Origin: Antedon mediterranea
Lineage: Eukaryota; Animalia; Echinodermata
NCBI RefSeq assembly: GCF_964355755.1
Contig: NC_092672.1
Location: 29,952,437 to 30,016,436 of the forward strand
Length of the DNA: 64,000 bases
Reading direction: 5' to 3'
The notes under the pieces are model-generated. The model saw only the letters and a list, made by a program, of their open reading frames with translations, was not told the origin of the DNA and made no database searches. Positions 11,542 to 61,200 of the stretch are shown in pieces; position 1 is the stretch's first letter, and each line of letters begins with the position of its first letter. A program made the position numbers and the translations under genes.

Positions 11542-11858
11542 GACACACGTAAGCTACTGATTAGAGTGTATAAACGTGGATACCAGTGTATCATGTATCA
11601 GGAAAGTTGAAAAACGATCGACGATAAATAGACAAATATGCATTTTTCATACATAAAACAAAAGAAATATAAAAACTTTTCATTCTAGAACTATAGAATA
11701 ACCATCTATGCTTCCTTGATGAAAATATTATTTTTATCAAAGACAGCATAAATGATTATCCTATATAACGAAAGCCTTTCTAATTTCTTTTGTTTTATGT
11801 AATAAAAATGCATATATTTATCGTCGATCGTTATCGTCCAAGTGTAAATGGGCTTTAA

Positions 11859-21100: not shown

Positions 21101-24100
21101 GCTGGGGGAACATACACACGTTGTTTACTGTTACCATGCCTCCAAGGAAAAAACGTCAATTGTGGGAGAGTGGGGTTGGGAGATAGGGTTCAGGGGATAG
21201 TGGGGATTTAGCTTACACCAGGATTGTAGTAGGAAGCGGATGGGAGTTTGGGGTGGGGATGTATGACTATCACAATGACCGAAACTGTATTTCGAATGTT
21301 TTAAACTACATTTGACAACTGCCACTGAGGGATTATGGGTTTTAATTATCAGCCAATGTGACACCTATTCATTTACACAATTTACAACGTACTTCAACCA
21401 TTATTAGACCCATCATAGCTATGGGGGGCCGCAGTATCTAAGTTAGATATTTTAATTATCAGCCAATATGCCACCTATTCATTTACACAATTTACAACGT
21501 ACTTCAACCATTATTAGACCCATCATAGCTATGGTATACTCCTCTCAATTTGAAGCTTAGGTTGAATTGAATTTGTCCATCACTGGGAATAATTTGTTTT
21601 TAAGAAAGAGTATGGGGTGGTATTGAAAAGAGGGTGGAGGTTGGTGAGTATAGGCATATACTGGCGTCGGGTGTTATGTACTGAGAAGGCTGTAAACTAA
21701 TTTTGAAACCCGCCCTGGGGCGGGTATAACTGCTAGTAATTAATAATACGTCTTGTGACAATGCAACTATTTTTGTTCACTTTCAAAGAAATTAAAAAAT
21801 GAGGTTACGAAATATTTTTAGTTGACTACCCGAATGATTCGTGAACCGAAAAAAATAAAAGTATTTTCGGGTTTCTGACGTTTAGCGGTATTTGTAGTTT
21901 TTTATTTTCCAGTGTAAGCATACGTTAACCATTCGTGAACTATTAGGCCGATCCACAATACAAAAATATATATATTTTCGAGTTTCTGACGTTTGGTGGT
22001 AGATTTTTATTTTCCAGTTGGATATACAGTACATTTACCCTGTTGAATAATCTCATAATATAATACTTAACCGCTGCAATGTTGACAGTTGCTAAGCTAC
22101 CATGACGTCATTTGACAACTCTTGATTAGTCGTGTTTGTGCAGACGCGGTGGAGCTAAAGCCTGGAAGAATTTCTTTCAAAAACCACACAATTGATTAAC
22201 AACCTTGACCGAAGCCATTGTCTTGAATTTTGACAGTTAAGTGCATGCATTCAATTGATATTCAATTTATATATATTTATTCATAGAATTGTGTATCTAT
22301 AATACCATGGCAACGAATTTAATAAATAATAGTACATATAGGCCGGTATATATGATTGCATAAGCAATATTATGGAGTGATTGTGTTTTTTTCTGATTAT
22401 TAAAACACTTTGGATCATGTGATAATAATCTCTTTGGTCGCCGGTCGATGTCGTCGACTTCTGAAATGTGAAATGACAAGCGACAGTTCGAATAATCCAT
22501 CGCTTGTGATTGGTCAAATCACTTACGTTGCGTTAAGTCCTCGTGTTGCGTATCTAGTGGGAACCAAGAATTAGCAATAGATTATTCAAACTTTTGCCCC
22601 TGTCATTGGTGGTCAACTAGATTGCGTAGCGTCTCTATGTCCTTGTGCTGCGTCCTAGTGGGAACCAGGCTTTAAACGTGCTTATTCTTGGTCTCCACTA
22701 AGACGTAACGTTAAGATGCAGCAAAACACGGATATGACTATTGTCATGCATCCAGGTTCTATAAATAAAGAAAGATATCAATCTGTAAGCGCAACTCAAT
22801 AAAATTGACCAATCACGCGATAGCTCAATATCAGATGATCAACATTTCGTGATTCAAGGTCACGCAATAAGCGCAACACAATTAACTATTTAAAAGCAAC
22901 AGTCTGGCAGAGATGATGCGTCACCGGTGATTGGTTAAGCTTGGTTCTCACTATCGATGATCGACGCAACGTAACGCAATCTAAGAAAATGCCCTTCCAC
23001 TCATTTGTTCCCCCCCCCCCCCGGCGCCTGCGTGAAATCAAACCTACGATGTTTGCAGCACTGTTGCCTCGTCGGTTCCCACTTGTGATCGCAATACAGC
23101 ACTTTGCGTCGATAGGTCGCTGCGTTGCGTTCTAGTGGGAACCACGCTTTAATTGCTTGTATTACTGTACGTTTTTCCGTTACGTTTTAATCCGATCTTT
23201 TGTTGTTCAACGACAAAATGTCTGGACGTTGGGAACCACATAGTATAAAGTTCGTCTGCATATCAAACAAAACCAAATTCACTCCTTATAGACCTATAGA
23301 AGAATTTGATACATTATTTGCACCTAAGAGTTATCTTCTATTTTTTAATTTCTAAAGCCTTTATTTAACGTATATTATGAAGGTGGTATAATAAAATGAC
23401 CTTGTTTTGACAACCTCCCTGGAAATTATGAATTAGTAGTTCGACACACTTCCATTCGGTTTGTTTTTGACGAGGTATGAAATCGATAATCTGCCTTATC
23501 TTTTGTTTGACTCATCGTTTGGTTGGTCAACTGGAATGAGAATTCCATTAAATATTGTTACAATGATTATTTTAGGAAATTTCCTGTTGTGGATTAACAG
23601 TTGTCATAGGAAACAGAAAACAACCACAAAACAAATCATGTGTTGGTTTCAATACCATAGTTACACAAAAATATTTATAATTTATTGCTTTTAAAAATAA
23701 TATTTTGAATTGTTCTATATGCCATAGTTACAAATACAAGTAAGCATTAATTATTGTGATATATTATAATTTGTTATGGTAACGCAACGACAATTTGGCC
23801 TATACTGTATTTAAACAAATTATATAAAATATAATATTGGTAGGCCTAGCATAGAAAAGCATCAGATATGGTTTAAAAATCAATGACAGAAAGGGGAAAT
23901 TCCGAACGAACGATAATTGCTTATATAAAAATGGAATACAATACCCCAATAGTCACTGATAATGCAATATTATTGGTTGAATTATTGTTGTTATTTTGAT
24001 GTTACACACCGATAACCCGTCCGTAGACTTGTTTCCCCGTGGGGTCCTTCTAGTGGTGGTGAATGTTCAGTAAACCAGATGACCCCCTGGCCCTACTAGC

Positions 24101-27100
24101 GACGACGCAACCTATGCGACGTGGGAAAATGAACTTCCAATAATTGTGTTTGCCCCCGCCTGTGTGAAATCAAACCTGAGATTTTTGAAGCACTGTTGCG
24201 TTTGTCGGTTCCCACTTATGATTACGCAATACATCACTTTGCGTCAATACACCGCTGCTTTTGCGTTCTAGAGTGGGAACCACGCTTTTCCGAAAGACGG
24301 CGCGTTATACTGTACATTCCAACCCGCAAGTTGGCATGGAAGAGAACGGCGATTTGATTCAAATCGCGTACCAAAGGTAATTCCCCACCACAGTGACCAC
24401 CACACCATTTTAGCCAACTGCGCTATAGGCTACCGCTCGCGGATATTTCTTATCGTACATAATAGTTGGGGACCGTCACAAATAAACATGAATATTCATT
24501 ACTCATATCCATTGTGACGACGTAAGAATTGATCTTACTACAATTCACTAATGCAAACGATTTTTTTGTCGATGTATGGGGTTCGAATCCCATGAGCAAC
24601 TTCTTTTTACTTTATGGGGAGAATAAGGTAATCTAAATGGTTAGCTTAAGTTATATATTTATTTATTTATCAATGTACACTCCTTGATCTTTCTTGCTCT
24701 AATTAATGATGCCATGCAAGACTCGCCATGTAAAACTTGGAAATATGTAGATGATTTGTGCATAGGTCAGATAGTAAAAAAGGATGTAATTTCCTCAATT
24801 CAGAATGATGTTGCTTTACTGAATGTATGGTCTAATGAAAACAAACTAAAACTTAACCTAACTAAATGTAAAATGTATTTTAACTTTCAAAGAAATCAAT
24901 ATGAACATGAACTCCTTTTCATTGGTAATGCTACAATTGAAATCGTTAATGAAACTAAGTTACTAGGTTTATGGATACAAGCTAACCTCAAATGGGACCG
25001 TAATGTTAAAGAAATTGTATCCAAAGCCAGCAGACGTCTGCCTATATTATGTAGATTAAGAAAGTTCAATCTTCCGAAATTTGATCTTGTAGATGTATTT
25101 AAGAGTTACATAAGACCAAGTGTTGAATATGCTGTCCCAGTATGGCATTCTAGTCTCACTAAGAAACAAAGTGATAGGATAGAATCTGTCCAAAAAAGGG
25201 CTTGCAGAATAATATTGTGTAATGACTACATATGTTATGACCAAGCGCTCAATGATCTTTCTTTAGACACTTTATCTGATAGAAGGCGTAATCTATGCTA
25301 TAAGTTTGCTCTGAATTGTTCAAAAAGTATTCATTTTGGAAAATGGTTTCCAGTGAAGAATGTAAGTAACATGAAACTAAGACGTGTAAAGTATCAACAA
25401 CCCAAATGCAGAGTTGAAAGATATAGAAAAAGTGCAATACCATACCTTATCTCGCTTCTAAATGAATAATCGGTATATATCACCCAGTACAGCTTTGCGA
25501 TTCTTATTGATGCTTTTAGGTGTTTTTTTTTTTTTTTCTATTTTAATATTTTAAGCTAAACTTTTTGAATGTTCCTGTATTGTATTTCTTGTGTAAATTG
25601 CCTCCTTTTTTATATATTATTATCATTGGTTTTATACTTTTATACAAATTTTAATATTGAACAAATGTAAATATCTTTGTAATTCAGCTAAGGCTGCGAT
25701 AATGATATTGAAATAAATGAAATGAAATGAATATTTAGGAAGTAGTTCGGCTATCTTTCACAGAGTCCCCAACTAACTTATGTACGAACAAAAATCGCAT
25801 GCTGCTCTCTGAATACATTTATTTAGCCCACTTCATATGAGATAGACAGATGTCCAATTTTTGAATTTGTTGGTGTGGAGCTCTTGTCTTGGTTTATCTC
25901 AAAAGATTTTTAATTTATTAATTAATATTTATTTCAGTATTTAATTTATAAAAGATAAGAGGACGAGATCTATAATTAGTGGGAAATGTATAGAAGACGT
26001 ACACACAATATAGAATTACTCCTCATTGAGAAAATCTCATTAGGGGACGACATGTATCCGTGAAATGAACAATAATAATATTAATATTGTTTTTTATTCA
26101 GGTGGTCCTTTGTAGAGGCTCTACTTATTACTCTCTCTGTTTTTTTTTAGTATCGTGATGACAAAACACCAAAAATATCGAAAGTCTACCCAAGAGCAGG
26201 CACTCCAGGTACATACGTCAATCAGTTCGAGTTTAGTGTCATAGGCCATGTTTCCGCAGACAAAAATGAACCGATATTTTATTATCCGATAAACAAAATC
26301 ATCGTTATGGCTGCGGAAACAAGGCCGCCATAGTAGTCGGATCATAGACAAACGTCTGTCTATGATTGGTCGGATATTAGAGAGCGTCGTCGACGCAAGT
26401 GAGTGTACTGATTGCAATTTTGGCGTTTCATAAACGACGTGTCAAGTCAAGCGTGACGACGTTTTGTTTATATTTTTCCGGGATATCTGGCGGCGTGTTT
26501 AAAAGAACGAGCACATTATTTAAGTCTATAATTAAAAGATACTAGATAATTGATACCAGATACCATGTAGGTAACGAAATATGTACATGTTGTTTTCAGG
26601 TGATACTAGGCCTAGCTAGGAAGGAGGCTCTAACCCTTTAGAGTTAGAGAGCTGCGAGAGCAGCACATCTAGCCTATATATAGGCTAGGCTAGGCCTACT
26701 AGCTAGGTAGAGTAGAGAGTACTTTTTTAGTTGTTTAGTACTACTGTACTACTAGTACTAGGCCTAGGCTAACTAGGGCTAGCCTAGATAGTAGTATTAG
26801 TATTACTAGCCTAGCCCCAAAACTAGCCCTACTAGGCTATTATATATGGTAGCCGATCACTCTGGTCGCCGTCGTGGGTGTCAGTTTGCTGTGCGATGTT
26901 ATTTTATGCACTAGTCTATAAAGGCTAAAAAAACAAGCCAAATTGAATAGGCTTAGACTAAGCCTATTCAATTTGGCTTGTTTTTGTGTTTTCCTTCCCA
27001 TTTGACCTGATTACCACTCATCATATTCTTTTACTAACTTTTGATTCACTGTTGATGTTTAGATTAGGCTATTAGTACTACTAGTATTTTATCATTTGAA

Positions 27101-30100
27101 GAAGTATATTTAAGTTGCATTCATTAATGATTTATTTATTATAATTACAGATAGTCCGGTGAGGGTTGATGGATTCATTGTATCTGACGTTGTAACTGAC
27201 GTCCAAACACAATCTGAAGAGTATGAAGAATCAAACACAAATATTGAGCTCAAAAGGTTAGTAAACATTACAGTGAAGCCTTGTTTACACTATCAAAATT
27301 TATTGTGATGTGCCCATATATGGACATGATGATGTCATATCATCACCATATTTGGGCAATTCACACTTTAGTTTGATAGTGTGGACAGAGCTTAAATAAA
27401 AACAAATTCAAAATTACTTGCTAAAAGCAAATAAATCCTTCTAAGAAATGGTGATTATAGGCGATGGTCATTCAAGATAGATGATATAAAAAAAAATGGT
27501 TTTTTTTCTCCTAAAAAATAACTAATAACTAATTTCAAAAACCAATTTTAAACGCTTTAGTCTTTAACGCTGAGTATTTTTTACGTTGAGTATTTAGTTT
27601 ATGGATAATTTTAAGCGATTAACATTTACTATTTGAAATGAATTTTCTCTTGATATTACATATTTTTATATGATTTACCATTCAAATAAAAAAAGTACTT
27701 TTTATAAAATAGAAAATAGATTTTCTGTTGACTGATTGATTGATTGAAATATATATTTATACTGGGTAACCTCTTCAGTCAAAGACTGGTCTCCCAGAGG
27801 GCCCAGTTGGTGATCAGTGGCTGTGATGTACTACTACACCGGGGTAACCCCCTACTCGTCTCGAAAGATGTACTAGGTTCTTTAAAGTGCACACGAGCAA
27901 GTGGTGTACACTGGACCTACGGTTTATAGTCCTTATCCGAGAAGACTCGTTCTACCACTAGAACCATGGAGTGAGTGAGCCTCGAACCCCTGCCCATGTT
28001 ATGGCTACGTGATTACGGTTCCACTGTCTTAACCGCTCGGCCACTCACCCACAAAGGATTCCAAATCAAATATGCCAAGTGACCTATTTAAAGCTCTGTC
28101 TACACTATCAAACTTTATGTGACAAAAATGTGATGTGCTCATATATGGAAATGTGATGTCATCACTACCATATTTAAGTATTTTACTACCATATTTGGTT
28201 ACATCACACACAGCTTAAAATGTGAATAATTTATTGGTTTTTTTTCCAGAGTGTTCATGGATGCTAGTATTTGTGACCTTATTAATCAGACATCCGGAAC
28301 TGTGTAAGCATTATATTTTTTTAAATATATTTAGTGTTTTATTTTTTATAAAGAAAAAAAAAATATATTTCCACGATGCATGTAAAAGTGCAATTCATAT
28401 CACAATATTTTTATTTCTTTTTATTTATTTAAAACATATTTAGGCAAGATAACATATTTCTGAAAATAAAAAATCAGAACATTTCTATTTAATAACAATG
28501 AAATGTGATGTGTCCATATATGGACATGATGATGTCATATCACATCATATTTGGGTATATCACTATCATATTTGGGCAAGTCAAACTAGAGCCTAATATT
28601 TAAAAATATAATTTTGTTGCAGATATGGAATTGACAAAGCATCAAATGGCTGGGGCAGCTTCTACTGTAAACCAAACAGTACTGTAGTCGGCAAGTATAA
28701 ATTTTTTTATCCAATAATTAACATAATAAAAACAAATAAGTTCTTGTTAAAATTATTACTTAAATGTACACAGAATTTCACTTAAAATGGTTAAATATAG
28801 AATTTGGTATAATTCTGCTATAAAAAGCAACTTTTTTCAGTAGTTTGGTAGTTTAAACCCAATGTAATACCATATCTGGTGACTCCCTAGAAATTGAAAA
28901 AATGAATAAAAACACCAGAAACGTAAAATTCAATTTATATTACCTATATTTAGTTATCTGATAATATTTTTTACCAAACTGTTTATTTTTCATAATTTTA
29001 GAGAAATGCCTCCCTATTCACAACCTGCCACAACAAGAATAGGATTTTACTGTGTATGTGAACTGAAAAGAAAATGCTTATTTTCAACACAATATCTAAA
29101 TAAAATCCAAAAAATTATGAAACATAGTGAGAAATATCGATAATTGTTGGAATGCCATTATTGATAGAAATGTCTTACCTGCACCTGGCCTTTTGATTCA
29201 AGATTATTATTTATTTATGTCTATTGATTTTCTTTGTGCTGCCCATAATATTTTGTATTTTTAGTATGTACATACAATGCTCTCAGCTTTTGCTGCGTTT
29301 TGTATTATATTTTTATACCAAAATAAATAAATAATTTATTTATTATGTTTTTGTTATATACTGTAACTTGCAGATTCCAAAAAGGTCTCCTTTTTAGTGA
29401 CTTCAGAATATGGGCATTCTTACACATACACGGACGCCCTCACCGTTAGTTACACCAGAGATATTTATTTGTTCCAATTATACACTGGTAAGTTTACAAA
29501 CTACAGTAGTATGTTCTTAATGTCATTTTATTTGATTTATGGTAAATGCACCTTTTCCATTGTTGTGTCGTCTCTTTGGAACTAAACTCAAACTTTCACC
29601 CACTTTTAATTCATTTAAAATTAATTTAAAAAATTTAAGGATCAAGGATTTTTTTTTTAAATTAACGCAATATAAATGTTGGAACCTGCATTAATTGTCT
29701 CCCCCATTGTCTTTGCCAACATAATAAGACATTTTGGTAGAAGCATTGTCATCATCGTCTCATATAAACGTCAATCCTTTTTATTGTCATAAAATGATAA
29801 TTTTCTCATTTTCCAGATGTTACCAGCGTATCACCGAACACTGGAAGCCTAGCGGGCGGTACAATACTCACGATAGAGGGAAATTACTTTGGGGGAAATA
29901 TTGAACAAGTTGATGTTAAAGTTGGAGGCGTAGCTTGTGAAGTACTGGAAGTAACAGACACTGTAATCAAATGTAGAACCGGTCCGCAGCCTGCTAACCA
30001 GACAACATATCCTGGAAATAGAGGGATGTTTAGAGAAGTCTGGAATAAAACTAGCGTACATGCGTACGTTTTTTTTTCCAATCTTTTTTTATGCTTCAGT

Positions 30101-33100
30101 GTGGCTCACCTTAACTTTGTGACTTTATTTCAGTAACGTTTCCCAGCTTGAAGCGCAAAAAATTAATATATACTGTATTACACTATTTTTGGTGTTTTTT
30201 GCTAATTGTTTAAAGTGTTTCTTATATATTTATAAATTGACACACAGGCATAGAACAAATTCTAAACTTTCTGGTGATATACTGAAAATTAATTCAATTT
30301 GAATATGATAACAAAATCTGCCCCATTTTAAAGATATATAGAAGTAAATGATAAACCATATTATCTTATGTTACAGGGATTTCTCAAATGCAAATTTCAG
30401 TACTACAACAAGCGACTATTTCAGTGAGATCATTGACGAGTTCAGTTCTCCTGAAGTACCTTCGTTTGGCGAGACGGATTATTATTATACCCGTTACACC
30501 GGTTACTTTGTCGCCCCCTACACCGGCGAGTTTAGATTGTTAGTTGACAGTGATGATCAATCCCAGCTGCTTTTCAGCATGTCTGAAAACCCAGACAACT
30601 TGGTAAAAATATATACTTTTTAATTTTAAGCTCACATACACTATCAAACTTGTGACAAAAAAATGTGATGTTCCCATACTATATGGAAATGATGATGTCA
30701 TATCACTGCAATATTTGGGCACATCACAATTTTTTTTTTCAAACTAGTTTGATAGTGGAGACAGCTTTTATACTACTATTAAATATTTCCACCTAATTTT
30801 GAAGGCAACCAAAACTTAGACCTTAGGATATTTTGGGGATTCTTTTCTACGAGCATTGACATTAAATAATACACAAATAATGAATATTTACGAGTCCAAT
30901 GGTACAATTAATTTCATGATGTGAAATATGAAAGGTTATATTTTCATGAGGCAAAGCCAAATGAAAATAAAAAAAAATCTTCTACCGAATGAAATTATTT
31001 ATTTCATTGCATGAAAATAAAACATTCATTAAAATTGTAGTGCTCCAATTTTTGACTTGGAGTAGACTACAGATGGCGCACATGATAAGTCAGCAACGGC
31101 CTTGTGTTTGTTATTAATTCTCCAATAATGATATAATTATAGCGTCCACTATCATAAAATCAAAACTGTGCTTGTTCAGCAATTGTCTGATGTCGGTTGT
31201 TCAAACATTGTAATTTTGCCTGTTAAGAGATGTCTTTAATAATAATATTGCAGTTTTTGTATAAACCATGGGCTATTTGTTTCAAAACAGGTATGTAAAA
31301 AAAAAGTTCTAATGCGTACTATTGCACGCCATGTGACCCAAAATCGTCCAATCAAATTACAGGAATGTATTTAGGTGTAATATATAAAAACAGGTATGTA
31401 CTGGCTTCGCTGTTTCTGAAAGACTTGCCACTTTAGGTTCAATTAAAATTAATTAAGAAACTTATTTATTTATAGCAAATTTCAGGATACAATGACGCTA
31501 CTGTATATACATGTTAGATTATTATTATTTGTTTTTAATTTAGACCAAGATAGCTTATGTTACTGGGTGGTCCTCCAACTACTATAAGTATCCAGAACAA
31601 GTTTCAGAATTGCTAAATCTGGTTGGTGGAAACCGTTATTATGTGAAAGCCATTCAGAGGGAAGGAGGTGGAGGAGATCATTTACGTGTCGGCTTGCTTA
31701 TGTACGATCTTCCATTTAACCATTCGGATCTTGGTGGCGCTTCAGATGAGAAACAAGTTATTGCTATTAGCTCTGTTGTACAGCCAGAAGTACAGGTGAG
31801 TACACATTTTACAACAAACAAAATAAAGTTTAGGCAAGGAGTTTTAGTATCAGCAAAAAAAATAATATAATTTTATAAATAATCGGCTTCAGCTTTAGCA
31901 CATTTCCAACCCATGTAAAGTGCCTTTCAAACCTGCTCCAGCTCTAACACTGGAGCGGCAAATCAAATCACATCTCAAGGTTTCGTCTTCATGACACTCT
32001 TAAAGCTGCTCAGCTAGTTTGATAGTCTTGATTTGTACCAAACATATGCTAGGTCACATTAAGCCCGTCCAAAATCGAATGCGTTTTCTTATATTTTTTC
32101 ATCAGGTAATAAAGTTTGACGTGGGAAATTCCACCGCCATCAATAATTTTGTATTGACACTTGATGGTGTCGACAGTGATGCTCTATCCAGTTCATCATC
32201 TGCAGAAGATGTTCGAAATGCCATCTTGAAAATGGCTGCTGTCAAATGTACCCGGACTGAAGGTGGCAATACATATTACGCAGTAGATTATGAAGAAACT
32301 CCTGCATACCATACCGGCAACCTTGTACGAGATACAGAGCCGTATTGTGGCCATGTTTCTTTGAGGTCTCCTGGCTACGTGTTCTGTGAGGGAAGGAATG
32401 AAGATCCCGATGGTGAAGACCTAGAGCCCTTCCGTGTTGATGCATTTCAATGGGTAAGAGACATTACAAAATACCATAGAGATATTATAAACAACTGGAG
32501 GGTTAACACCTATAAAATTCAAACTTAAAAGCTTGCAGCCATTATTAGGAACTTTTGATTGTACATGATGACCAGAGATGACAATAATGTTTGTCTGCAT
32601 TGCATGTGTTATATAAATATTCTTTATTTCATTGATAAAGCTATGAAAAATGATTGATGTGCAAACAGTCTTTTTCTAGTAGTGGTTTTTGTCGTCGACA
32701 AATCTCTTGTGTCCTTATCATGTTGCTAATAACTAACAAATACAGTACAGTATATGTCAATGAAAATACAAATACAGTAGAGGCCTGTTATTCTGTATGC
32801 CCATGTTTTAACTTTGACAACAAGGAAACTAAACTTAAAGCTCTGTATACCCATATATGGACACGATGACATCATAGCATCACCATATTTGGGCATATCA
32901 CTACCATATTTGGGTACATCACATTTTTTTTGTCAAACAAGTTTGATAGTGTAGACAGAGCTTTATGCTTCTTTTATCCATAAACGGTATTGTAGTTTAA
33001 ACTTTATGTTTTGCAATTATAACCAAAATATATTGTTTATTAATCTTGGAAAACAAACCACAACAAAAGAATGACAAAAGCTTCTGTCACCGAAGGCGTG

Positions 33101-36100
33101 CCTCTCCAACAGTATAGCCAGAACACACAAATAATAATTAATTAGATAAAAACAATTTACAGTTTAAAATAATTTATTAAAGGATTTTTTTTATTTAGAT
33201 TTGTTTCGCATATAAGGGTGGAATTTCAAACAAAATACGCTTTAGAGTTAATTGGGATTATGATGGAAGCAGAAGAAGTGACAATAGGGATTATTATATT
33301 GATGGCATCAGCAGCAGTACCAGGTAGGAACAGGTCATATTATGTTGGTATTGGTGAATTCTTAATCCACGGTTGTGTTTGCCTCATGAATTATTCATTA
33401 GTCAAGAGGTCATACACAATCTTCATAGTAAAGGGAAAAGGCAACTTATATCCACCAACTGTCTTGAACCCAGAGGATTAGGCAATTTGTCTTGCCGCTT
33501 TAAGCTCTGTCTACACTATCAAACTTTCTGTGACAATGCAATGTGATGTGCTCATATATGGACATGATGATGTCATATCACTACAACAATTTGGGTACAT
33601 CAATACCATATTTGGGCACATCACACAAACTTTGATAGTGTAGACAGAGCTTTATAGGGATATAAAACTCTAATTCCATTTTGAAATGTTTTCAAAAAAA
33701 GGAACGATACTTTGCTAAAACTTGTCTAAAAAAAATCATGAAAAACAAAGGTAGTCACAAACCTGTTTACCTGAACTAAAAACAAAAATAAGCTGAACTC
33801 CATAATTTAAGACTTATTGATTTGCAATAAGTGATACATAATTGTAATCATATCAGCTAGTGAATTCATTTATTTCTTCAGAAGACTGTTCTGTACCATA
33901 ACAACCAAATCATGAAACTGAATATTAATTTTAATTACCTTTTAAATAGATTTATTTTAAACTGTATGCATACTTTTATATATCTATGTATCTATGTAAC
34001 TTTTTGTCTGTTTTTTTGTGTATCTATGTAAAGCGCCTTTGAGCATGTTATTTCATGAAAAGGGCGCTATATAAATGTGGTATATTGTTATTATTATTAT
34101 TATCAACACATTCTCAACCTTTCTTTATTTCCTTTTGGACACACATGGTGTAACTTTATTACCATTCCGTTTTTATTGTTTTTAATAGCTGGCAGCATAC
34201 ATGTTTTCAAGTAGTGGAGTATATCAATAACGATGGGTGGATTGGAAACTCAGCTACAGAGGGAACACATTTTGAAATTGAAAGGATAACATTAAACAAA
34301 GAAGATGGTGCAGATGAATTCTACATTGATATGTTTGAAATCGCAAAACAAGAAGTGAGATGTAAGTATCATAAGTTGTTGATATAAAGTTGCGGTACAC
34401 AAGGTGTATATAGTTCTGAAAAGAACTTTTGATCACCCTCAGGAATGAGAGAGAATTCAGAAAATCCTGGAAACTTGGAATATAAGTGCAATAGAGTATC
34501 ACGGTGTGACATCACAACGGTAGAGGGCGCTGCATGGTTGCTAGCCAAACAAAAAAATGCGTTCAGCGCTACTATGTTGATAAACAGTAAAGATCTGTAT
34601 TTCTATCAAATTGTACCAAATGTACCTTAGCTTGATTTTTTTAAACTTAAACTGTAGTTGAAGAAAAAATAGATTATTAGAAACAAATATTTAGTGATCT
34701 TTTGAAATTTTAGTTTGTTTTTATTAAAAATTATTAAGTTTTAAAATGACTACTTTAATAAGCCTATTCCAAACCATTGGTGACCTTGGAGTCACTCAGG
34801 CAGGCTGAACGCATTTTTGGTTGCGCTAGCACCACCTACCATGACGTCAGCACCGTGATACTCTATAGGGTGGAATTGGTGTGAAAGCTAAAAACAATAT
34901 CAAGTTCACAGGGATTGAAAACAGCATTGTTTCTCAACAATGGTGAATGGAAACTAGCTATAGAAGAGCATTGTTTCCAAGCGTTAAAGAGTAATTATAT
35001 TACTAGAGAGTTAACTCCAACTCAACCACCTCAAAACAAGTCGTAACAGAAAGGGATCATTGAATATGGCTGCATATATCATATATGCTAGTTACTACCA
35101 CTACTTGGGTTCATTCTGTTGACAACATCAAAGAGTCAGACTTCTTCTTAGCAATTTCTATGACTAAAGAAATATATAATAATATAAAAGTAATATTATT
35201 AAGATATTCAATTGTTCTGAAAGCTTGGTACTTTATTTCTGGTTTGCTTACTTCATTGAGATCCAGCCACTGATACCCACAGGATTGTCATTTGTGAAGT
35301 GCTTATTTTGTTTGTATCTATCATTGACTTCTAGACACTGATATCGGCAGCTATGTCATTTTTTCAGTAATTTTCCTTTATTAACAAAATAATAATTTAT
35401 TTTGGAATTTGTGTTTTTCAGATGATCGATCAGAAGAACCCGCAAGACCAAATGACATCCTGATCACAGACGTGACAGTGGAGAAATCTCCTAGTGAGTT
35501 CAGAGTTCAGTTCTATGCAGCCGACTGTGGAACTGACTATCCTCTGCTAGGGATAAAGGATGCCACAGTAGATCAAGGGTCTACAAGCGGCAACTCTGTG
35601 ACTTTCAGTGACTCCTCATGGCCTGCCAGTGAAACGATTACTGTTGAAAGAGTTACTGCAGCCTCTTCACCGGTTACTGGAAATATTAAGATTTCTTGGA
35701 AAGGAAAAATAACAGGTAAATACGTTTTCATCGACCATAATTATTTGAAGATATTAAGCTGTAAAAATATAATTATATACTATATTTGTAAAAAAATTGT
35801 GGCTTGCATCAGCTTTGTGATATAGTTGATAAGCCCTAAAAAAAAAGCTCAGTGACACATTTATGGAGAGGTCCCAACTGGGTGCTATTCTTTTAAAAAT
35901 ACATTCAAACATAATAAAATGGGTAGGCCAGGCATTTTTTATGGGCATGTACATTGTGTATTTTGTTAATAACAAAAGGTGAAAAATGACACAACAATGG
36001 CACAATTCTTGCATTTAGTTGGCAGAATTTGCCAGTTAGTATTATAGCTTAAAAAGGTATTCAAATGTATGTACTATTGGGATGTTTGGGTATATCCAAA

Positions 36101-40200: not shown

Positions 40201-43200
40201 TATTGTTGACAAATTAGTTGGCAGAGTTTTATGCTTCTGCAGAATTATGGCCTCCGGTAACTGGTGTAGACAGGCGAATCAAAGTTTGAAAAATTTGTCA
40301 ATGTTTTGTAAGTGTACCAGTTGAAAATCTCAGCCTTAAGCTCTGTCTACACTATCAAACGTTATGTGATAACAAAAATGTGATGTTCCCATATATATAT
40401 CATAACTACTATATTTGGGCATATCACTACCATATTTGGGCAAATCACACTAGTGTGAGAGTGCAGACAGAGCTTTATTGGAGGTTTTCATCTCTGGTGG
40501 CTGTGCGTTAATGAAACAAAATAGTTTGCAGAAGTTAAGCTGTGCATTTTCTTGACAAAGAGGTTTTTGAGTTCAGCGAATCAAATTTATTTATTATTTT
40601 TTTTATACAGGAGGAACAAAGGTTACAATTACTGGGTATGGGTTCAGTGATATTCCAGATGAAAACACAGTTTATATTGGTGATAATGAATGTATTGTGT
40701 CTCAAAGTACATACGATGAAATCAATTGTACAATCGGCCATCAGGAGGTATGTATGATTCTTCCTCTTTTAAATGTAAAGCTCTGTCCATGCTATCAAAT
40801 TAGTTTGACAAACAAAGTGTGACATATAATTGTAATTTCACTCTTCCCTGATACAGGTAAAATATATTATTGATGACATCATCATGTCCATATATGGGTA
40901 CATCACATTTTTTTGTAAACTAAAGTTTGATAGTGTGGACAGAGCTTTAATAAGAGAATAACCTGTGACACATGTGTAGACCACACAGGCAAACAACTTT
41001 TATCTGTTCAAAAAGATTGGTTTCCACTTGGATGCAACGCAAATGAGTTGACCAATCAGAAGCGACAGTTCCGATGATCAATTGCGTTGTAATTTGTCAA
41101 TTACTTATGGTGGGGTTGAGTTGCTTCCAATAGGAGGCAAGCTTCAGTTGTCACCAAATAAAGCGATTTCATCTACTATCGGTATAAATTATTTATATAA
41201 TATCAATTTTTTATAGCAATCGCGTCGTAGACGACGTTCATCAAACGAATTAGATATAAATATTGGTACTCGTGGTCAGGAAGTAGATGAAGAGAATGAA
41301 TTTACAGAGGAAACAATTTCAGCCACAATAGCATCACTAGCCCCAACAACAAGCTCAGTAACAGGTAAGCTAAATCAAAGCACAGTAGAACCCTTATTAA
41401 ATGAACACGGTTTTTGGCCATGGGGAGGTGCACTTGCTAAGGTTTAAAAAATCAGAACACAGGAATCTGTTACTCAGTATTGTGTACAGGCTGAAATCAA
41501 GATTAATTGTTTGATGTGGTGTTTTTAAACTTGGCAGTGGCCTCAACATGCATCTGCAGCCTAAAACCTTGATTTTGTACCGTCAAATTGCCATCATGAG
41601 AAAGTTACATCTTTGCTGCAGATCCTAACAATACACATATACCTAAATCCACTGACGGGAATGTATATCATGAACCAAATAATTGTACATAAATAATAGG
41701 AAAGTGCAAAGTTCAAAGACACTACAAGTACTCCAATGAAGTTTTCTTTCCATTTTGTTTTAACACAGGTGGCGGCGTTCTTACAATCAATGGTAATGAC
41801 TTTGGAACTGATAGTGTTGAGGTAAAGATAAACGGAAATGCATGCGTTGTTACATCTCAAACCAACACCGTCATTCAGTGTACTATTCCAGCTAATGATC
41901 CTGGAGAGTATACAGTAACAGTGACTTTACCAGCAGGTGATATAGACAGGTAAATAAATTACAATATAGCACAACTATCTATTTACCCATCCTCAAAATA
42001 ATAATACAGCTGGACTTCCTGTAAAGTGTACATCCTTGGGTCTGGAAAAATTCCTGTTAATAGTAGGTATATATTTATATTCCTTTATGTACTTAAATTT
42101 AGAGGTGTCAAGACAATGTAATAATCACCAATCACTCATAAAACCAGTATTAAGTATGTATTGTTAAGCGTGTAAACATTTTTAATAAAGTTTATAGGCC
42201 TAACATTGAATGTATATTTGATTTGTGTTTTAGAGGACTTGCGTGTTATCCTAAAATATCTGTAATTTTATTTTGATATGATCAGTTCTGAATAAAGTCA
42301 GGCATTATATCAAAATGTTGTACAGTATCATAGATTATCCTCTATTACAGCATTCTTATTTTTCTTTATTTAAATTTCAGTGATTTGACTTTAACCTATG
42401 ACCTTGAAGTGACCGGTGTGTTTCCTGACCACGGCTCTCTCCAAGGTGGCACCAAAGTATTCATTACAGGATCGGGATTTGGTACAAATGGTACGATTCT
42501 AAGCGTTGAGTTTGGCGAGACGGAATGTGAAATTACTGACGTTCAAGATGATCTGATTGAGTGCACAAGTGGTCCGTCTGGTACAACCCATCAAATAAGT
42601 AATAATGGAAAACACAAAGGTATGTAGGAGAGTCACAGTAGAACGCCTTATTATAATACTTATATATGGCTTAATGCAAAAGTAATCTAAGCGTTCCACA
42701 TCTTTACCCCGGAAATTTTTGAATCAAACTCAATCATACTCCAATAATGTTGTTGCTAGTATTCGCCACAGTTGTGTCTTGACCAGGTACCCATTTATAC
42801 ACCTGGGTGGAGAGAGGCAAACGTACATTTAAAAGTATCTTACGTAAGTACTGTATACAAGCAAAGCAACGAGTGTTAGATTCAAACTCACAATCAGAAG
42901 TCCAACGTCCAACACACGCCCCATTGATGGGAAACCTTTGACAACCAACAAAGTGTTAAAAAGTCATTGTATTCCCCCTTGTTCATTTAATAAAAAAGTG
43001 CTTCCTTAGTGATGTAGCTGCATCAAAAAAAGTTCATTATTTATCTTTTCACGAAAAAAACCATGATTTGCGTAAAGTGTATGCCTAATACTATAGGGCT
43101 TAGAGCTTAGTTAAAATTTATTTTTCCATGTCAACCTTGCAACTAGAATTTGGTGTTGAAAATAAAGTGGATGGGAACTTATTCAACCTTGTGATAAATC

Positions 43201-46200: not shown

Positions 46201-49200
46201 ATGTCAAGCCTTTCCTAAGGCTCTGTCACTATATCACTACCATATTTGGGAATATCACTACCATATTTGGGCTTTAGTTTGTCAACCTGTGTTTTTCTGC
46301 AACCATGTATTAAATGTGACAGCCATCGGGCCTTGTACGTTTGGTTGACAAAAATGTGTATAACATACAAACATAAAAACAGCCTAGAGTAAGTAGAGAT
46401 TTCAGACACCATTTTGGCTGCCATCCAAGATGACGTATAACGCTCAAACCTTCCCAATTCCAGTCATTTTGATACCATTTGTGTACGGATATGTCCTGTA
46501 GCATAAATTTGTGTAATAGACAATCTTTCTATGATTGTTATATTATTTTTGATGCATTTTATATTCTGTTTTGTATACGGCAGCTTCTGAACTTGCTTGT
46601 GATGTTGTGGTTAGTGTCAGTGATGACACCACGGAGACACAGTCAAATGGTTTCACATATAAACAATCGTTGACTGCGACAATAACCAGTGTTAGTCCAG
46701 CCAGAGGTGGAACTGCAGGTGGAACTGAAATCACTATTTCTGGAACAGGTTTTAAGTAAGTCCTTTATTATAACTTAAACAGTAATCAGGTAAAACTCAA
46801 CTACTACTTCATTTATATGTACAAATTCACTGGTGTTGTACAAGAAATCAAATCAAATGTTCTGAAAAAAAAAGGTTTATATTCCTAATTGTATCATTGT
46901 TCCTTATTTCATTGAATACACTTTTGTCATATCACACAAATACAACGTATAAACTCCGAAGTGGTACTGTTTGTTCGTATTCTTATTTTAGTCTTACAAA
47001 TTTCTTTCAGTGATAAATTCTAGTTCCCTGAGTTTTTACCTCATTGGAATTAGTTTGCTACTGTTGCAAAAACTAATATGGTCATTTCCTGTTTTGTGTC
47101 ATAGGTCATCTGGTAATGTGGTAACAATTGCTGGTTCTGCATGTGTTATTTCTTCTGAAACTACAACAAGTATTGTTTGCACAACCGAGGGACACGATGG
47201 TTCCATAAAAACACATGTTCGTGTAGTGACAGATAATGAAGAGAATATCGCAACACAGGTATTTTTTTCTCATAGAGATATATATATAACTCTGTAGAGG
47301 GCGATCTAGGTGTCATGAGGCGATATCCTGAGCTTGACCATCCTAAATGTTATTAAAGTATTTATGAAGACCTACTCATGACCCACAGTTGTTTAATACT
47401 GTACATTTTTTTATGAAATTGAGCGCATCAATCAACACGAATAAATAATAAAAGCTCTGTCTGTCACTATCAAACTTTATGTGATAAAAGATGTGATGTG
47501 TCCATATATGTATTTTTTAACATATCACTACCATATTTGGGCACATCACACTTTTATTAGGCTTGATAGTGTAGACAGAGCTTTAGACTGATGGTACACT
47601 TTTTATAATCAATATTAGGATAACGCTGAGTACTACTACGTGGACGTCTGGTCCTCAAGATGGACCTGGGGAGGTCATGATCCACCAATTGCTGGAGATT
47701 TTGTTATTGTTCCAGCTGGTCAAACTCTCTTACTGGACGTGACAACACCTGTACTTGCAATGCTTTTGATTCAAGGTATGACATAGATATATCCAGAAAA
47801 GTCAGTCAGTCAGTTGTATTATTATTTTAGAAACTGAAAGGGGAAATTAACTTGGATTAAAGGTGTGAATATTTATTTTAAAGTTAGTACTGAATATAGT
47901 GTCAAGTTTGTAAGATGATATCGGTACTTACATTTCCAGAGAACTTGACGTTTCGCCTACTAACAGCAAGGCATAATCATAAGTGAATACGTTCTGGTGA
48001 TGTAGCGGTGACGTTACGATGACACGGTTGAAAAGAGCCATTGTGAAGTTTACCGCTTGGAGTTATCGTAAATGTGCGTAATGCGCATTTCAACCGTGTC
48101 ACCGTAACGTCACCGCTACGTCACCAGAACGTATTCACTTATGATTATGCCTTGCTGTTAGTAGGCAAAACGTCAAGTTCTCTGGAAATATAAGTACCGA
48201 TATCATCTTACAAACTTGACACTATATTGAATCATATAGAAGTAACTTTTTATCACATTACATTTATTATGTTTGTTCAGGTGGCAGTTTCATTTTTGAT
48301 GAAGCCGATATTGAGCTACATGCCGAGAACATTCTTATAATGGATGGAGGACTGCTCCAGGTCGGTACCGAACAAGAACCATTCCAGCACAAAGCTACCA
48401 TTATGATGCATGGCCACCAGAGGTCACTAGAAATCCCTCTGTATGGTGCCAAGACTCTTGCCGTAAGAAACGGAACCTTGGATCTTCACGGTAAGAAACA
48501 AATTTTAGAAAGAACCTAATTACATATGTGACAAGTGACTGATCTAGCATAGAGCATAAGACACACTCTCTTTATCTGTAAGCCATTTAAATAAATAATA
48601 CAAATTATTTTGCTCTGGTACTTTCTCATCCGTAACTCCATCGTTTCTAAAACATACAGTACAGTTTTGTTTTCTTAAAATTGGGTCTGAACTGTTGAAT
48701 TATCTTCATACTGATATATCTACAACTTTTCAGTTAAGACAAATTGTGGGATACAGTATCATATGTGTATCACATGTGTTGCTGTATAATAGGTCATAAC
48801 CCTAAATCTTGTTCATCATAATACATTGTACATGTGCTGCACATGTGATCCTGTATACATAATTTGCCTATAAATACTTTCTTTCATCAAGATTGTATTG
48901 TTTCTTACCATGTGCAAAATTGATTGACATATTAATGATAAAATCTAATGATAAAAAATAATTGTTTTTACCTCAGGAATTCCAATACCTGTCACTTGGA
49001 CCTACCTTGCAGAAACTGCTGAAGTCGGAGCAACAACACTTGATTTGGAGAAACCTGTCTCTTGGAATGTTGGCGACCAGATTGTTATTGCATCAACCGG
49101 AGAAAGACATAGCCAGAGAGAAAACGAAATGGTTGAAATAACAGGTATTTTTCAAAAAGATTTTAACCCTATTATGGGTCACCCCTATTAAAGGAACACC

Positions 49201-58200: not shown

Positions 58201-61200
58201 TTAGTTAAATCGTGGTTATCGCAAATCAAAAGCTCCTCAATTATTAAAATGTAATATTTTAATATTTTGAATGTAAATATTACATTGTACCATAGTAAAT
58301 GTTGAGCTTTTTTCCTTTGTCAATATTTATTTTTTTTATTTTTTTTTTTTTTATTTATTTTTCAAGTGTATGATAATCTGGACATGGATAGTCATTTGTT
58401 AACAACCTTTTAACAAATTTTTGTCATTCATTTTCCTGGGGCGTAAACATTTACATTTTGTAAAGTAAAATGTTTTTGTATGTGTGTATGGGATTAACTT
58501 TGGTTGGCGCTTGCTTTGTAGGTATTGTAGGAGTAGGAACGGACAAGTGTGAATGGAATGCAGATTGGAATGCGTATAAATGCCACCAGTTGGATCATGC
58601 TATGATGATCATAGAGAGCATGGACCCAGATACTGAGGTACGTCGTCTGTCACCAATCGCCATGTGTTCAGAAGACACTGTAGATCTCATCAATGGACCA
58701 CAGGATCACGGATGGTGCCACGGCTACACATGTCAGGAACGTATCAGTACGTTCATGTCCATCGTGGCAACAGGGAAGACTTACGAGATGTATATGAGCA
58801 GTACGAACCCTCAACATCTTCGCTTGCATCTTCTGAACTCTAATGATGATCAAAAGGTTGTTGTCGGTATCTGGTATGCCAATCCTCAACGTTTAGATGT
58901 ATATCATCAAGGCCGCTATGTGATGCCAAACAATGGTGGAACTGACAGGTCTGGTTCCTTTATTTGGGTGGATAAGGATCCAAACCTTCCCGATGACCAA
59001 TTTCAGCCCAAGCCAACATCAAATATTTACGGGGGAAACTATTTTGACCGTGAGCGCCAAACCCTCTGGGTTCTAGTACGTGGTGGAGATTCTGTTGACA
59101 TTATCACGACTCCTGTAGTCATGGTTGCTATTGGAGTTCCGGCAGTCTCTGTTGATGATTTCTTTGAGGAGAATCTTGTACAGAATCTGGCAAATCTTCT
59201 GGGAATTTCTAGTGACAGGATACGGGTTGTGGATGTCATCAGAGAGGGAAGTACTCGTCGTAGAAGGCGTTCAGATGAGGTAACGGTAGAAATTGAAATC
59301 GGTGACCAACCTGCGACTAACATAGACGTAGGCAATTCTACTTCCAACAGCAATCTTACAGACACATCATATGGTAAGTTAAACACCTGAGGGCACACCT
59401 CGGGAGCCAACACAATGTCTTCTTTAATAAGGGTGTCTCCCAAAACCATATAAGGTGGACACTTTCCTGTTGAATGAGAAATCAAATGAATCAAAAGTCA
59501 ATGTGTTTTCACACAAGGCCAACCCCTATACAGGGGACACCCTATTAAGAGGACACTTTGTTAGATCCCAGAAGCTCTTCTACTCTAGTACTTGTTTTAT
59601 ATTCAGCTCCTTTAAATTAAAACATGTTTACATGACTTTATTTATTTAAAACATCTATTCATTTTTTTCTAAAACAGGAAACTATACAGCGGGCAATTCG
59701 TCTCTTGGTTATGATGACCTGCTTGATATCCAGTCACAAATTGCTGATGCTGCCCAAACTGGAGAGCTATCTGAAAGTCTTGATGTGGAAGTTCAATCAT
59801 TAGCTATGTCTGATCCTGTGGAACCAGCTACCGATCCCACAGGAGGTGAAAGAGCAACTAATGAAACGGGTGGACCAGACAGCGGTGACATGCCGTGAGT
59901 AGTCCTTGCTAGTTACATAGTCTTCAACTCTGTCTACACTATCAAACTAGTGTGATGTGTCCAAATATGGTAGTAATGATGTCATCATGCTCATATATAA
60001 GCACATTCTTTTGTCACATTGCTAGTGTAGACAGAGTTTACATTTACGATGTAATAGTCTACAGTAAAGTATCTGGTTTTTTATACACAGTTATGGTGAA
60101 GTTGATAGTGAGGAAGAGGAACCAGTTGTAGAAGTTGTTTACCAGTTTCCTAGCTACTTAATGGTTTCACAACAACCGTCTGACGCCAGTAGAGCATGGC
60201 CATTTGTCGTTGAAGTATCTGTTCTTGATGCACAGGTAAAGAAAGATAGAAAATCTTAATCTAATGTGGTTATAAATAGGTTGAGGTCACAAAAGGTCAG
60301 TGGTCACAAAAGGTCATGGTTAAAGAGAAACTCTAAATGTCGTAAAATAAATTAAAAGGAGAAAGTCTTACAGTTTTTAACTGTTTCATCCTATTTTAAT
60401 ATTTATCCAGTATGTCTATGAGTAGGTTAAGGTCACAAAATGTCAATGGTTGAGATCACAAACTTTAAAAATGGTTATTTCACGACAGTCATTATGCTTT
60501 ACCGATACTGAAAAATAAGTAGGGTTATTATTAATGTTGCAAATGGTTATATTTTATAATACACAATAGAAATTGTGTACCTAGAGCTATACCTTTTAAA
60601 TTAAAGTTCAACAAACTTATATTTTCTTTTAATAGGGTGAGCTTGTACTGAATCTTGGACATTCATCAAATCCTTGGAAGATGGAAGTAAGTCTGAGATC
60701 GGGAACTGGACCAGAAGGATCTATGCTTACTGGCAACACAACCATTGGCATTGTCAATGGCGTTGCCAGCTTTACAGAAGCAATGCTAGACACAACAGGA
60801 TCAGGATACATCTTGGACTTTGCCATCGTCTATCCAAACACTTCGACTCTAGCACCTGTTAGTAGCCAGTCATTCTCGGTTGCAGAACGAGAATTTGAAG
60901 TCGTCGTTGGTTCCCAACCTAATGTCAGTGTAACAGTTGGAGAGAGGTTTACTGTAGGATTTAGCCTGGCTGATGTTTTAAGTGGATTGCAGCTTGCAGA
61001 TCTTGATTCTTATGTAAGTACTGTTATGCACACCGTACTCAATCAAATCAAAAGTAGGCTTTAGGCCTAGCCTGGGCCTGCCTATTTAGCATCTGCAGCC
61101 TACTATTAGAGGTTTCATGTACCCTCTCAATGCTATCGTGTAGCTCATGTTGCAGGTGGTACCAAACCGGGAAAGCTTTAAACACTCAAAATGTTTAAGT

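What the first reader, a model, noticed from the sequence alone, without database searches (positions are those of the whole stretch)
47893..48228. Intronic 141-bp hairpin with a mirrored pair of hammerhead variants (A3:U8 core); only the sense-strand copy is catalytically broken
Seen: both arms contain actt-ATGATTA-t-gcct...aggc-(G/A)AAA-CGTC-aagt. Established: the hammerhead core is CUGANGA...GAAA with a tertiary 3:8 Watson-Crick pair, and Penelope-like retroelements carry minimal hammerheads with a loopless palindromic helix III (here ACGU) and often leave inverted termini. Here C3:G8 is replaced by A3:U8, a compensatory double change rather than random decay. The minus-strand copy (47943-47984) keeps G12. 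The copy that would lie in the PKHD1L1 pre-mRNA (48137-48178) has G12 changed to A at 48167. Inference: a Penelope-like family with a rare covariant core, whose sense copy was disabled by selection against pre-mRNA cleavage or simply by CpG decay.
Basis: partly seen in the sequence, partly recalled or inferred. Interest (0 to 1): 0.78.

Follow-up and report, generated by a model that had tools for sequence, protein, structure and literature searches.

The report
Retrotransposon hammerhead with flipped core pair
The hairpin is two copies of a young repeat joined head to head inside a gene's intron; the repeat is likely the end of a Penelope-like jumping gene, and it carries a hammerhead-shaped, possibly self-cutting RNA whose key core pair is A:U instead of the usual C:G, a form that standard searches would miss, while the damage to one copy is likely ordinary decay.

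Summary
Observation confirmed: 141-bp arms (47893-48033 / 48088-48228, 4 mismatches) in an intron (47776-48280) of a fibrocystin-L gene, likely of a crinoid. Each arm holds a motif matching the published Penelope minimal-hammerhead consensus except for A3:U8. Public contigs show a dispersed, young repeat with A3, U8 and G12 in the majority; A at 48167 is a minor variant. The pair is head to head, with a 30-35 nt tail on one end only, as in Penelope-like elements (PLEs); a related organism appears to lack the insertion. An unrelated metagenome contig (L121) has an A3:U8 motif with different helices between a PLE RT/GIY-YIG stop and the next ORF start. The crinoid family's own ORF was not reached, and cleavage is untested; one published mutagenesis found only G3:C8 rescuing. 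Selection against cleavage is not supported: G12A is one of six C:G-to-T:A changes, sits at a CpG, and the hairpin would sequester the motif anyway. I found no natural A3:U8 hammerhead in the papers I could read (three key ones were not held). This scan noted A3-U8 PLE hammerheads before in another genome (unreviewed). Verdict: new variant of a known kind.

The parts
47776..48280 (+). Host intron (505 nt, GT-AG) of a PKHD1L1/fibrocystin-L gene, between two G8-domain exons
   Evidence: spliced junction in a contig of run X6
47893..48067 (-). Left copy of the repeat: inverted, 5'-truncated at 48067, lacks the 3' tail
   Evidence: family contigs cover 47893-48067 and run on past both ends with other letters; left junction to host flank held by X2 contig 6
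47943..47984 (-). Minimal type I hammerhead-shaped motif, A3 47980, U8 47975, extra U 47973, G10.1-C11.1 47972/47955, G12 47954, palindromic ACGU 47951-47948, predicted cut after C17 47947
   Evidence: consensus in PMC4209133 fig. S3; X5 contig 17 identical over 47900-47986 at depth 774.6
48068..48087 (.). 20-nt junction filler between the two 5' ends, with a predicted 6-bp hairpin; the left breakpoint falls in a family palindrome
   Evidence: loose ends at 48067 and 48088; no laid contig is listed across it
48088..48263 (+). Right copy of the repeat, in the host gene's sense; 5'-truncated at 48088, keeps the 3' tail (end approximate)
   Evidence: family depth and loose ends at 48088 and 48251-48269
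48137..48178 (+). Same motif with position 12 = A at 48167 (family G, CpG site)
   Evidence: G in 926.5 of 956.6 depth (X1), 48.4 of 48.4 (X6), 11198 of 11198 (X8)
48190..48195 (+). Site where the family has a GTAAGT splice-donor-like hexamer; this copy has A at 48190 (the left copy keeps it at 47931-47926, minus)
   Evidence: (G in 4730.9 of 4760.9 depth in X1)
48229..48263 (+). 30-35 nt extension present on the right copy only; matches the PLE 'tail' in size and place
   Evidence: PMC8557442, PMC3846280, PMC11167929 passages

Best explanation
The hairpin is two 5'-truncated copies of one young dispersed repeat joined head to head in a fibrocystin-L intron; the repeat is likely the terminal repeat (pLTR) of a Penelope-like retrotransposon, and each copy carries a minimal-hammerhead-shaped motif with an A3:U8 core pair that would cut, if at all, slowly and only as a dimer or with the element's protein. 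Shown: the two copies, their orientation, the dispersed family, the majority A3/U8/G12 state, the one-sided tail. Inferred: one insertion event in which reverse transcription started at two sites about 30-35 nt apart and switched template at a palindrome, giving the inverted pair without a target duplication and replacing about 120 nt of host intron. Inferred: after insertion each copy gathered three cytosine-deamination-type changes, of which G12A at a CpG is one; at this locus neither motif would act, because any RNA that crosses both arms folds into the 141-bp duplex, which is spliced out with the intron and is a likely ADAR substrate.
For: Family: single contigs over the motif have 6 to 27 times the depth of single-copy flank, higher toward the 3' end (X2 9.4x at 47993-48067, 21x at 47911-47970; X8 6.3x at 48088-48161, 27x at 48154-48213; X1 15x; X5 12-14x; depth is a rough guide only). 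Both outer junctions are held by contigs of another individual (X2 contig 6, X1 contig 4 and loose end at 48228). Two 603-nt contigs of organism B (X5 contig 16, X8 contig 23) join 47892 to unlike letters and resume at 48259, which reads as an empty site if they are the same contig. The motif matches the published PLE consensus in every position but 3 and 8, including features the descriptor did not ask for. Head-to-head inverted pLTRs, a 30-40 bp tail on one end and palindromes at the junction are described PLE traits. L121 has RT and GIY-YIG-type ORF end at 114-1118, an A3:U8 motif at 1331-1370 with other helix I and II pairs, then an ORF start at 1412 that matches the N-termini of its full-length relatives. 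Decay.
Against: No RT/GIY-YIG ORF of this family was reached: none in 150 of 154 window frames of 68 aa or more, no tblastn hit under E 0.07 with 120 PLE proteins, nothing from two protein searches with the element's open frame. No whole genome was held. In a type III hammerhead pairwise mutagenesis only the G3:C8 swap rescued activity (PMC9901934 passage), so A3:U8 may be nearly inactive. The tail-less end at 47893/48228 is seen at this locus only. L121 is a different element from a different organism, so it shows that A3:U8 goes with PLEs, not that this family is one. No contig spans the central junction.
Confidence: 0.78

Rival explanations
1. Same PLE origin, but the A3:U8 motif is a non-catalytic relic: it keeps the fold as a protein-binding, promoter or translation signal (A3-U4-G5 and A9-U-G10.1 both spell AUG) or simply hitch-hikes in a family that does not need cleavage. 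This rival concerns function and is compatible with the origin in the best explanation.
For: Only G3:C8 rescued in the pairwise mutagenesis. Catalytic mutants of a lizard PLE hammerhead did not affect insertion in vitro and no reads ended at the cut site (PMC11167929 passage). Naiad PLEs spread without canonical hammerheads. A contig of the likely RNA run X6 reads through the predicted cut site (contig 9). The free dimer's lowest-energy fold is not the active one, and the ACGU duplex is worth only -3.1 kcal/mol.
Against: Two transversions that keep a Watson-Crick pair at exactly 3:8, with all other core positions intact, in two unrelated elements (window, L121) and probably a third (L122), are what selection on the catalytic fold predicts. 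Both AUG frames stop within six codons here.
Confidence: 0.4
2. One reading: the sense copy lost G12 (and a cryptic splice donor at 48190) because these harmed the host pre-mRNA.
For: 2 of the 3 changes specific to the sense copy remove a possible hazard; the family donor matches 8 of 9 consensus positions against 7 of 9 for the real donor; the joint chance is about 0.016 if three G-to-A changes fall at random among 28 G (computed after the fact).
Against: The hairpin would hide both sites (pairing probability of sense helix I below 1e-41); minimal hammerheads are inactive as monomers; the left copy has as many changes of the same chemical class; G12 lies in a CpG; one locus, post hoc.
Confidence: 0.12
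3. A MITE or foldback DNA transposon whose long terminal inverted repeats resemble a hammerhead by chance.
For: Near-perfect 141-bp inverted repeat; other palindromic repeats are common in the window; no Rfam hit.
Against: Family contigs run on beyond both ends of the arms, the arms are unequal, no target duplication is visible, depth rises toward one end, and the motif is rare by chance.
Confidence: 0.07
4. Assembly fold-back artefact.
For: No laid contig spans 48068-48087.
Against: Each arm has its own three changes, and both outer junctions, with opposite orientations, are in independent contigs.
Confidence: 0.02

Closest known systems
Minimal type I hammerheads (min-HHR) in pLTRs of metazoan Penelope-like elements (Cervera and De la Pena 2014, PMC4209133)
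   Same: Short helix I, longer helix II, extra nucleotide between A9 and G10.1, G10.1-C11.1, loopless palindromic helix III with GAAAC-GUC, U-rich 5' flank, mostly solo copies, pairs on opposite strands 100-700 bp apart.
   Different: Positions 3 and 8 are A and U. Of the 56 motifs in fig. S3, 53 have C3 and 3 have U3; none has A3.
U3-A8 natural core variant (Schistosoma Cercyon PLEs, PMC4209133; Perreault 2011, PMC3088659)
   Same: Compensatory change that keeps the 3:8 Watson-Crick pair.
   Different: U3-A8 needs two transitions through a U-G wobble; A3:U8 puts the purine at position 3 and needs two transversions from C3:G8 (inference).
Head-to-head inverted pLTR insertions with tail (Adineta Penelope, PMC3846280; Naiad and canonical PLE scheme, PMC8557442; Anolis PAc, PMC11167929)
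   Same: Inverted 5'-truncated copy next to a direct copy, about 30 bp tail on one end, palindrome at the junction, insertion that can lack a target duplication.
   Different: Here both copies are short pLTR fragments with no ORF between them.
Non-LTR retrozymes (PMC7761336; bioRxiv 10.64898/2026.07.22.740005)
   Same: Non-coding hammerhead-bearing repeats tied to PLEs.
   Different: Those are head-to-tail tandem units with canonical or minimal C3:G8 descriptors; this locus is head to head with the two motifs on opposite strands.

Membership tests
Minimal hammerhead ribozyme of PLEs | Core U4 G5 A6 N7 A9, G12 A13 A14, A15.1-U16.1, H17 | tested here: met
   Minus copy and family majority; the plus copy fails at G12
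Minimal hammerhead ribozyme of PLEs | C3 and G8 as in the published consensus (or U3-A8) | tested here: not met
   A3 and U8; hence filed as a variant, not a plain member
Minimal hammerhead ribozyme of PLEs | Watson-Crick pair possible between positions 3 and 8 | tested here: met
   A:U in both copies, in high-depth family contigs and in L121, L122
Minimal hammerhead ribozyme of PLEs | Helices I and II, extra nucleotide after A9, G10.1-C11.1, palindromic loopless helix III | tested here: met
   (helix II pair probabilities 0.44-0.99; helix I 0.75-0.88 in 53 nt but 0.04 in the 168-nt context)
Minimal hammerhead ribozyme of PLEs | Covariation of helices among family copies | tested here: inconclusive
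   Copies are nearly identical; between the window and the unrelated L121, helix I pair 3 and helix II pairs 2-4 differ on both sides and stay paired
Minimal hammerhead ribozyme of PLEs | Self-cleavage after position 17, as a dimer or with protein | not testable with these tools
   Only contigs were available; no assay
Penelope-like element | RT plus GIY-YIG ORF joined to the repeat | tested here: inconclusive
   Not in the window and not reached for this family; met for L121
Penelope-like element | Dispersed, 5'-truncated copies | tested here: met
   Depth 6-27 times flank, rising 3'; varied flanks behind 48251-48269; depth is a rough measure
Penelope-like element | Head-to-head inverted pLTR with 30-40 bp tail on one end | tested here: met
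   47893-48067 minus, 48088-about 48263 plus, tail 48229-about 48263
Penelope-like element | Retained spliceosomal intron near the ORF start | tested here: inconclusive
   Family donor-like hexamer at 48190 and an AG followed by an ATG frame in a 30-letter loose end behind 48264; no spliced form seen
MITE / foldback DNA transposon | Family ends defined by the inverted repeats, with target site duplication | tested here: not met
   Family runs past both arm ends; no duplication at 47892 / 48264
Non-LTR retrozyme | Head-to-tail tandem units each with a hammerhead | tested here: not met
   One copy per strand, no tandem in the window; other loci not seen

The most novel reading that the evidence does not exclude
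A3:U8 hammerheads are working natural ribozymes that arose more than once in Penelope-like elements (a recently mobile crinoid family, the unrelated PLE in L121, perhaps L122), a purine-3 class that descriptors built on C3:G8 or U3:A8 and Rfam do not see, so some PLE families called hammerhead-free are not, and the dimer or the element's protein rescues a core pair that is poor in laboratory constructs.
Probability: 0.4. Interest if true: 0.65.

Novelty: new variant of a known kind. Interest (0 to 1): 0.45.

Why it matters
The 3:8 pair is the key tertiary contact of the hammerhead active site. Natural change at it has been reported as U3-A8 in the papers I could read. A young, mobile family with A3:U8 in the majority gives a ready substrate to ask whether PLE hammerheads must cut at all, which the reviews call open: cleavage would widen the natural catalytic core and the search descriptors; no cleavage would show that the fold is kept for another job. 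The locus itself is an ordinary dead insertion, though it shows how PLE head-to-head insertions put long double-stranded RNA into host introns.

Tried and rejected
No whole genome was held, so no genome-wide count, ORF linkage or sense-versus-antisense test. Rfam: no hammerhead hit for the window region or for L121/L122. Exact family pattern in metagenomes: 0 hits. Looser pattern: 3 hits in metagenomes (L121 PLE; L122 helix II 6 of 7 paired, helix I 2 pairs then mismatches, no PLE protein match; L123 inside a phage-like ORF, 2-pair helices, chance) and 1 in prokaryote genomes (L124, 2-pair helix II, chance). Viral contigs: 0 of 120 core matches with both helices; no PLE relatives of L121. Protein searches with the element's open frame: none at E up to 10; two repetitive, unrelated hits. 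No RNA holder was listed on record; X6 is a guess supported by exon-exon joins. No contig ends were seen to mark the predicted cut site, and contigs cannot show RNA ends. No contig spans the junction 48068-48087; a hole proves nothing. The start of organism B's 120-nt alternative has no match in the window. A constrained dimer fold crashed; only unconstrained cofolding was obtained. Literature searches for a natural A3:U8 core: 0 papers; 2 papers, neither with A3U8; 67 papers, 30 listed, none with the A3 U8 terms; 1 unrelated. Lunse 2017, Przybilski and Hammann 2007 and Arkhipova 2017 were not held and could already describe this variant. Sequence look-ups among earlier findings were blank. 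An early estimate in my notes of up to 100 copies from summed depth was dropped, as summed overlapping contigs inflate it.

Full report
OBSERVATION. The sequence shows a 141-bp inverted repeat at 47893-48033 / 48088-48228 with four differences. It lies in a 505-nt intron (47776-48280) of a plus-strand PKHD1L1/fibrocystin-L gene (Pfam G8, TIG and CEMIP domains). The best protein match among records of 971-2770 aa is from the crinoid Antedon mediterranea at 70%, so the host is likely a crinoid. A contig of run X6 joins the two flanking exons. A descriptor with any Watson-Crick 3:8 pair finds one site in the window, the minus copy; 150 shuffles gave 3 sites with G-U allowed and 0 without. Of 120 fetched chance-type core matches in viral contigs, 0 had comparable helices. 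Rfam sees no hammerhead.

THE REPEAT FAMILY. No genome was held, so I laid public contigs of 8 of 11 listed runs, four on each arm. Single contigs over the motif have 6 to 27 times the depth of single-copy flank, higher toward the motif's 3' side; the tool warns that depth is no copy number, so this means 'of the order of ten or more copies, more of them 3' fragments'. Most laid contigs are 95% or more alike (X1 31 of 53, X8 38 of 49, X2 30 of 33), so the family is young. High-depth contigs identical to the window across the core (X5 contig 17, 47900-47986, depth 774.6; X1 contig 1, 48099-48166, depth 736.6) show A3 and U8 as the family state. At 48167 the family has G (926.5 of 956.6 depth in X1; all depth in X6 and X8); one X1 contig at depth 30 carries the A, so it is a real minor variant.

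ARCHITECTURE. Loose ends show the family continuing 5' beyond 48067 (up to 228 letters in X11) and 3' beyond 47893 with the same letters that follow 48228 in the right copy; family matches end and flanks diverge at 48251-48269. So the left copy is minus 47893-48067, the right copy plus 48088 to about 48263, joined 5' to 5' by 20 nt of filler, and only the right copy has the last 30-35 nt. Both outer junctions are in contigs of sample S1. Two 603-nt contigs of organism B (X5 contig 16; X8 contig 23) read, if they are the same contig, as 47836-47892, about 120 unlike letters, then 48259 onward: an empty site, with no target duplication and up to 5 nt shared between the tail and the host. Passages of PMC8557442, PMC3846280 and PMC11167929 describe this for PLEs: an inverted 5'-truncated copy, head-to-head arrangement as the most frequent, palindromes at the junction, a 30-40 bp tail on one end that matches two reverse-transcription start sites, and some insertions without duplication.

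THE MOTIF AGAINST THE LITERATURE. In PMC4209133 (main text parts 1-2 of 4, supplement parts 1-2 of 3) the consensus has an extra nucleotide after A9, G10.1-C11.1 and a palindromic helix III, all present here; pairs on opposite strands 100-700 bp apart are mentioned; the only core covariant is U3-A8; 0 of 56 listed motifs have A3; monomers did not cleave and dimers cleaved weakly. PMC3088659 (passages) also reports U3-A8 as the natural covariant. PMC9901934 (passages) found only the G3:C8 swap rescuing a type III construct, which counts against fast A3:U8 catalysis. PMC11167929 found the lizard PLE hammerhead protein-assisted and dispensable for insertion in vitro. Four searches found no natural A3:U8 report, but three key papers were not held. 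I also saw passages of PMC3884650, PMC10085705, PMC6765202 and PMC7761336 and parts 1-2 of 5 of bioRxiv 10.64898/2026.07.22.740005; none showed A3:U8 in what I saw.

INDEPENDENT PLE LINK. A pattern fixing the core, two helix I pairs and G10.1-C11.1 gave 3 hits in metagenomes and 1 in prokaryote genomes. L121 has an ORF with RT and GIY-YIG-type motifs ending at 1118, whose 120 listed relatives carry RT and PF26215 domains (76 of them 820 aa or longer); then an A3:U8 motif with 4-pair helix I and 5-pair helix II; then at 1412 an ORF start that matches the relatives' N-termini (E 1.9e-4). That is a pLTR between tandem copies. Against the window's motif, helix I pair 3 and helix II pairs 2-4, which the pattern left free, differ on both sides and still pair. 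L122 has a good helix II and a weaker helix I but no PLE protein match; L123 and L124 are chance. The crinoid family's own ORF was not reached. An earlier unreviewed note of this scan (e1-9866753) reports many A3-U8 and G3-C8 motifs with PLEs in another genome; I did not check that genome.

G12A: DECAY OR SELECTION. Against the family, each copy has three own changes: left 48001 (inferred from the right copy and X1 contig 1), 48019, 48034; right 48167, 48190, 48230. All six are C:G-to-T:A; two, including G12A, are at CpG. Three random changes hit one of 13 core positions with probability 0.21. In the folded intron the arms pair with probability near 1, and forcing the sense hammerhead costs 67 kcal/mol, so it would be silent with or without G12. 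One point favours selection: the change at 48190 also removes a donor-like hexamer that matches the consensus better than the real donor (8 against 7 of 9; consensus recalled), joint chance about 0.016, computed after the fact at one locus. I give selection 0.12.

DOUBLE-STRANDED RNA. One contig of run X11 (organism B, kind not on record, depth 4.27) over 47893-48014 has 12 listed changes, all A-to-G: 12 of 20 A and 0 of 40 other bases in the zone where changes are listed, and 0 of 3 A that follow a G. This is the pattern of ADAR hyper-editing (neighbour rule recalled), on the strand opposite to the hammerhead, at another locus of the family. It is a single low-depth contig, so a hint only.

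VERDICT. A real, PLE-type head-to-head insertion (confidence 0.78) carrying a hammerhead-shaped motif with an A3:U8 core that I did not find in print. Whether it cuts is open (about 0.4-0.5). The locus-specific selection story is weak. New variant of a known kind; interest 0.45.

Noticed in passing
run X11 contig 4, laid on window 47893-48014: 12 of 12 listed differences are A-to-G, none after a G: looks like ADAR hyper-editing of an antisense transcript of another family copy; single contig at depth 4.27.
   Followed up: partly
window 48190 and loose end behind 48264: The family has a donor-like GTAAGT 16 nt after the predicted cut site, and a loose end shared by 3 X1 contigs and X6 has an AG followed by an ATG-led open frame: possibly an intron of about 80 nt before the element's ORF start.
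   Followed up: partly
L121 114-1502: Clear PLE tandem junction: ORF end, U-rich stretch, A3:U8 minimal hammerhead at 1331-1370, ORF restart at 1412.
   Followed up: yes
L122 184-244: A3:U8 motif with 6 of 7 helix II pairs directly after a short tandem repeat, followed by a donor-like site; no PLE protein match in the contig.
   Followed up: partly
run X1 contig 2, laid on window 48137-48261: Appears by depth to carry the window's A at 48167, 48190 and 48230 but continues with 165 unlike letters after 48261: another haplotype, a paralogous locus or a chimeric contig; unexplained.
   Followed up: no
loose ends at window 48159 (X1) and 47962 (X2): Another family copy seems to have the reverse complement of the tail region joined at the helix II loop, a second rearranged insertion.
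   Followed up: no
window 48281-48490: Several contigs about 80-85% alike lie on this exon in X1, X6 and X8: fibrocystin-L paralogs.
   Followed up: no
window 47452-47589, 27276-27393, 28086-28210, 30625-30772, 33497-33658, 40338-40481, 59919-60043: A palindromic repeat family of about 130-150 bp with many copies in introns, MITE-like, unrelated to the hairpin.
   Followed up: no
window 15379-15590, 16985-17188, 18714-18936, 22935-23151, 24103-24288: A repeat of about 200 bp in five copies, both orientations, 75-86% alike.
   Followed up: no
window 24645-25469 (+): 274-aa open fragment of a LINE-type reverse transcriptase C-terminus inside a host intron (RVT_1 E 5.7e-4).
   Followed up: no
window 27-948 and 5370-6345: Local duplication at 85% identity with PAN and laminin-G-like frames, upstream of the fibrocystin-L exons.
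   Followed up: no
window 5708-5823, 11613-11832, 15317-15492, 26929-26985: Further fold-back stretches; the hammerhead descriptor found nothing in them.
   Followed up: partly
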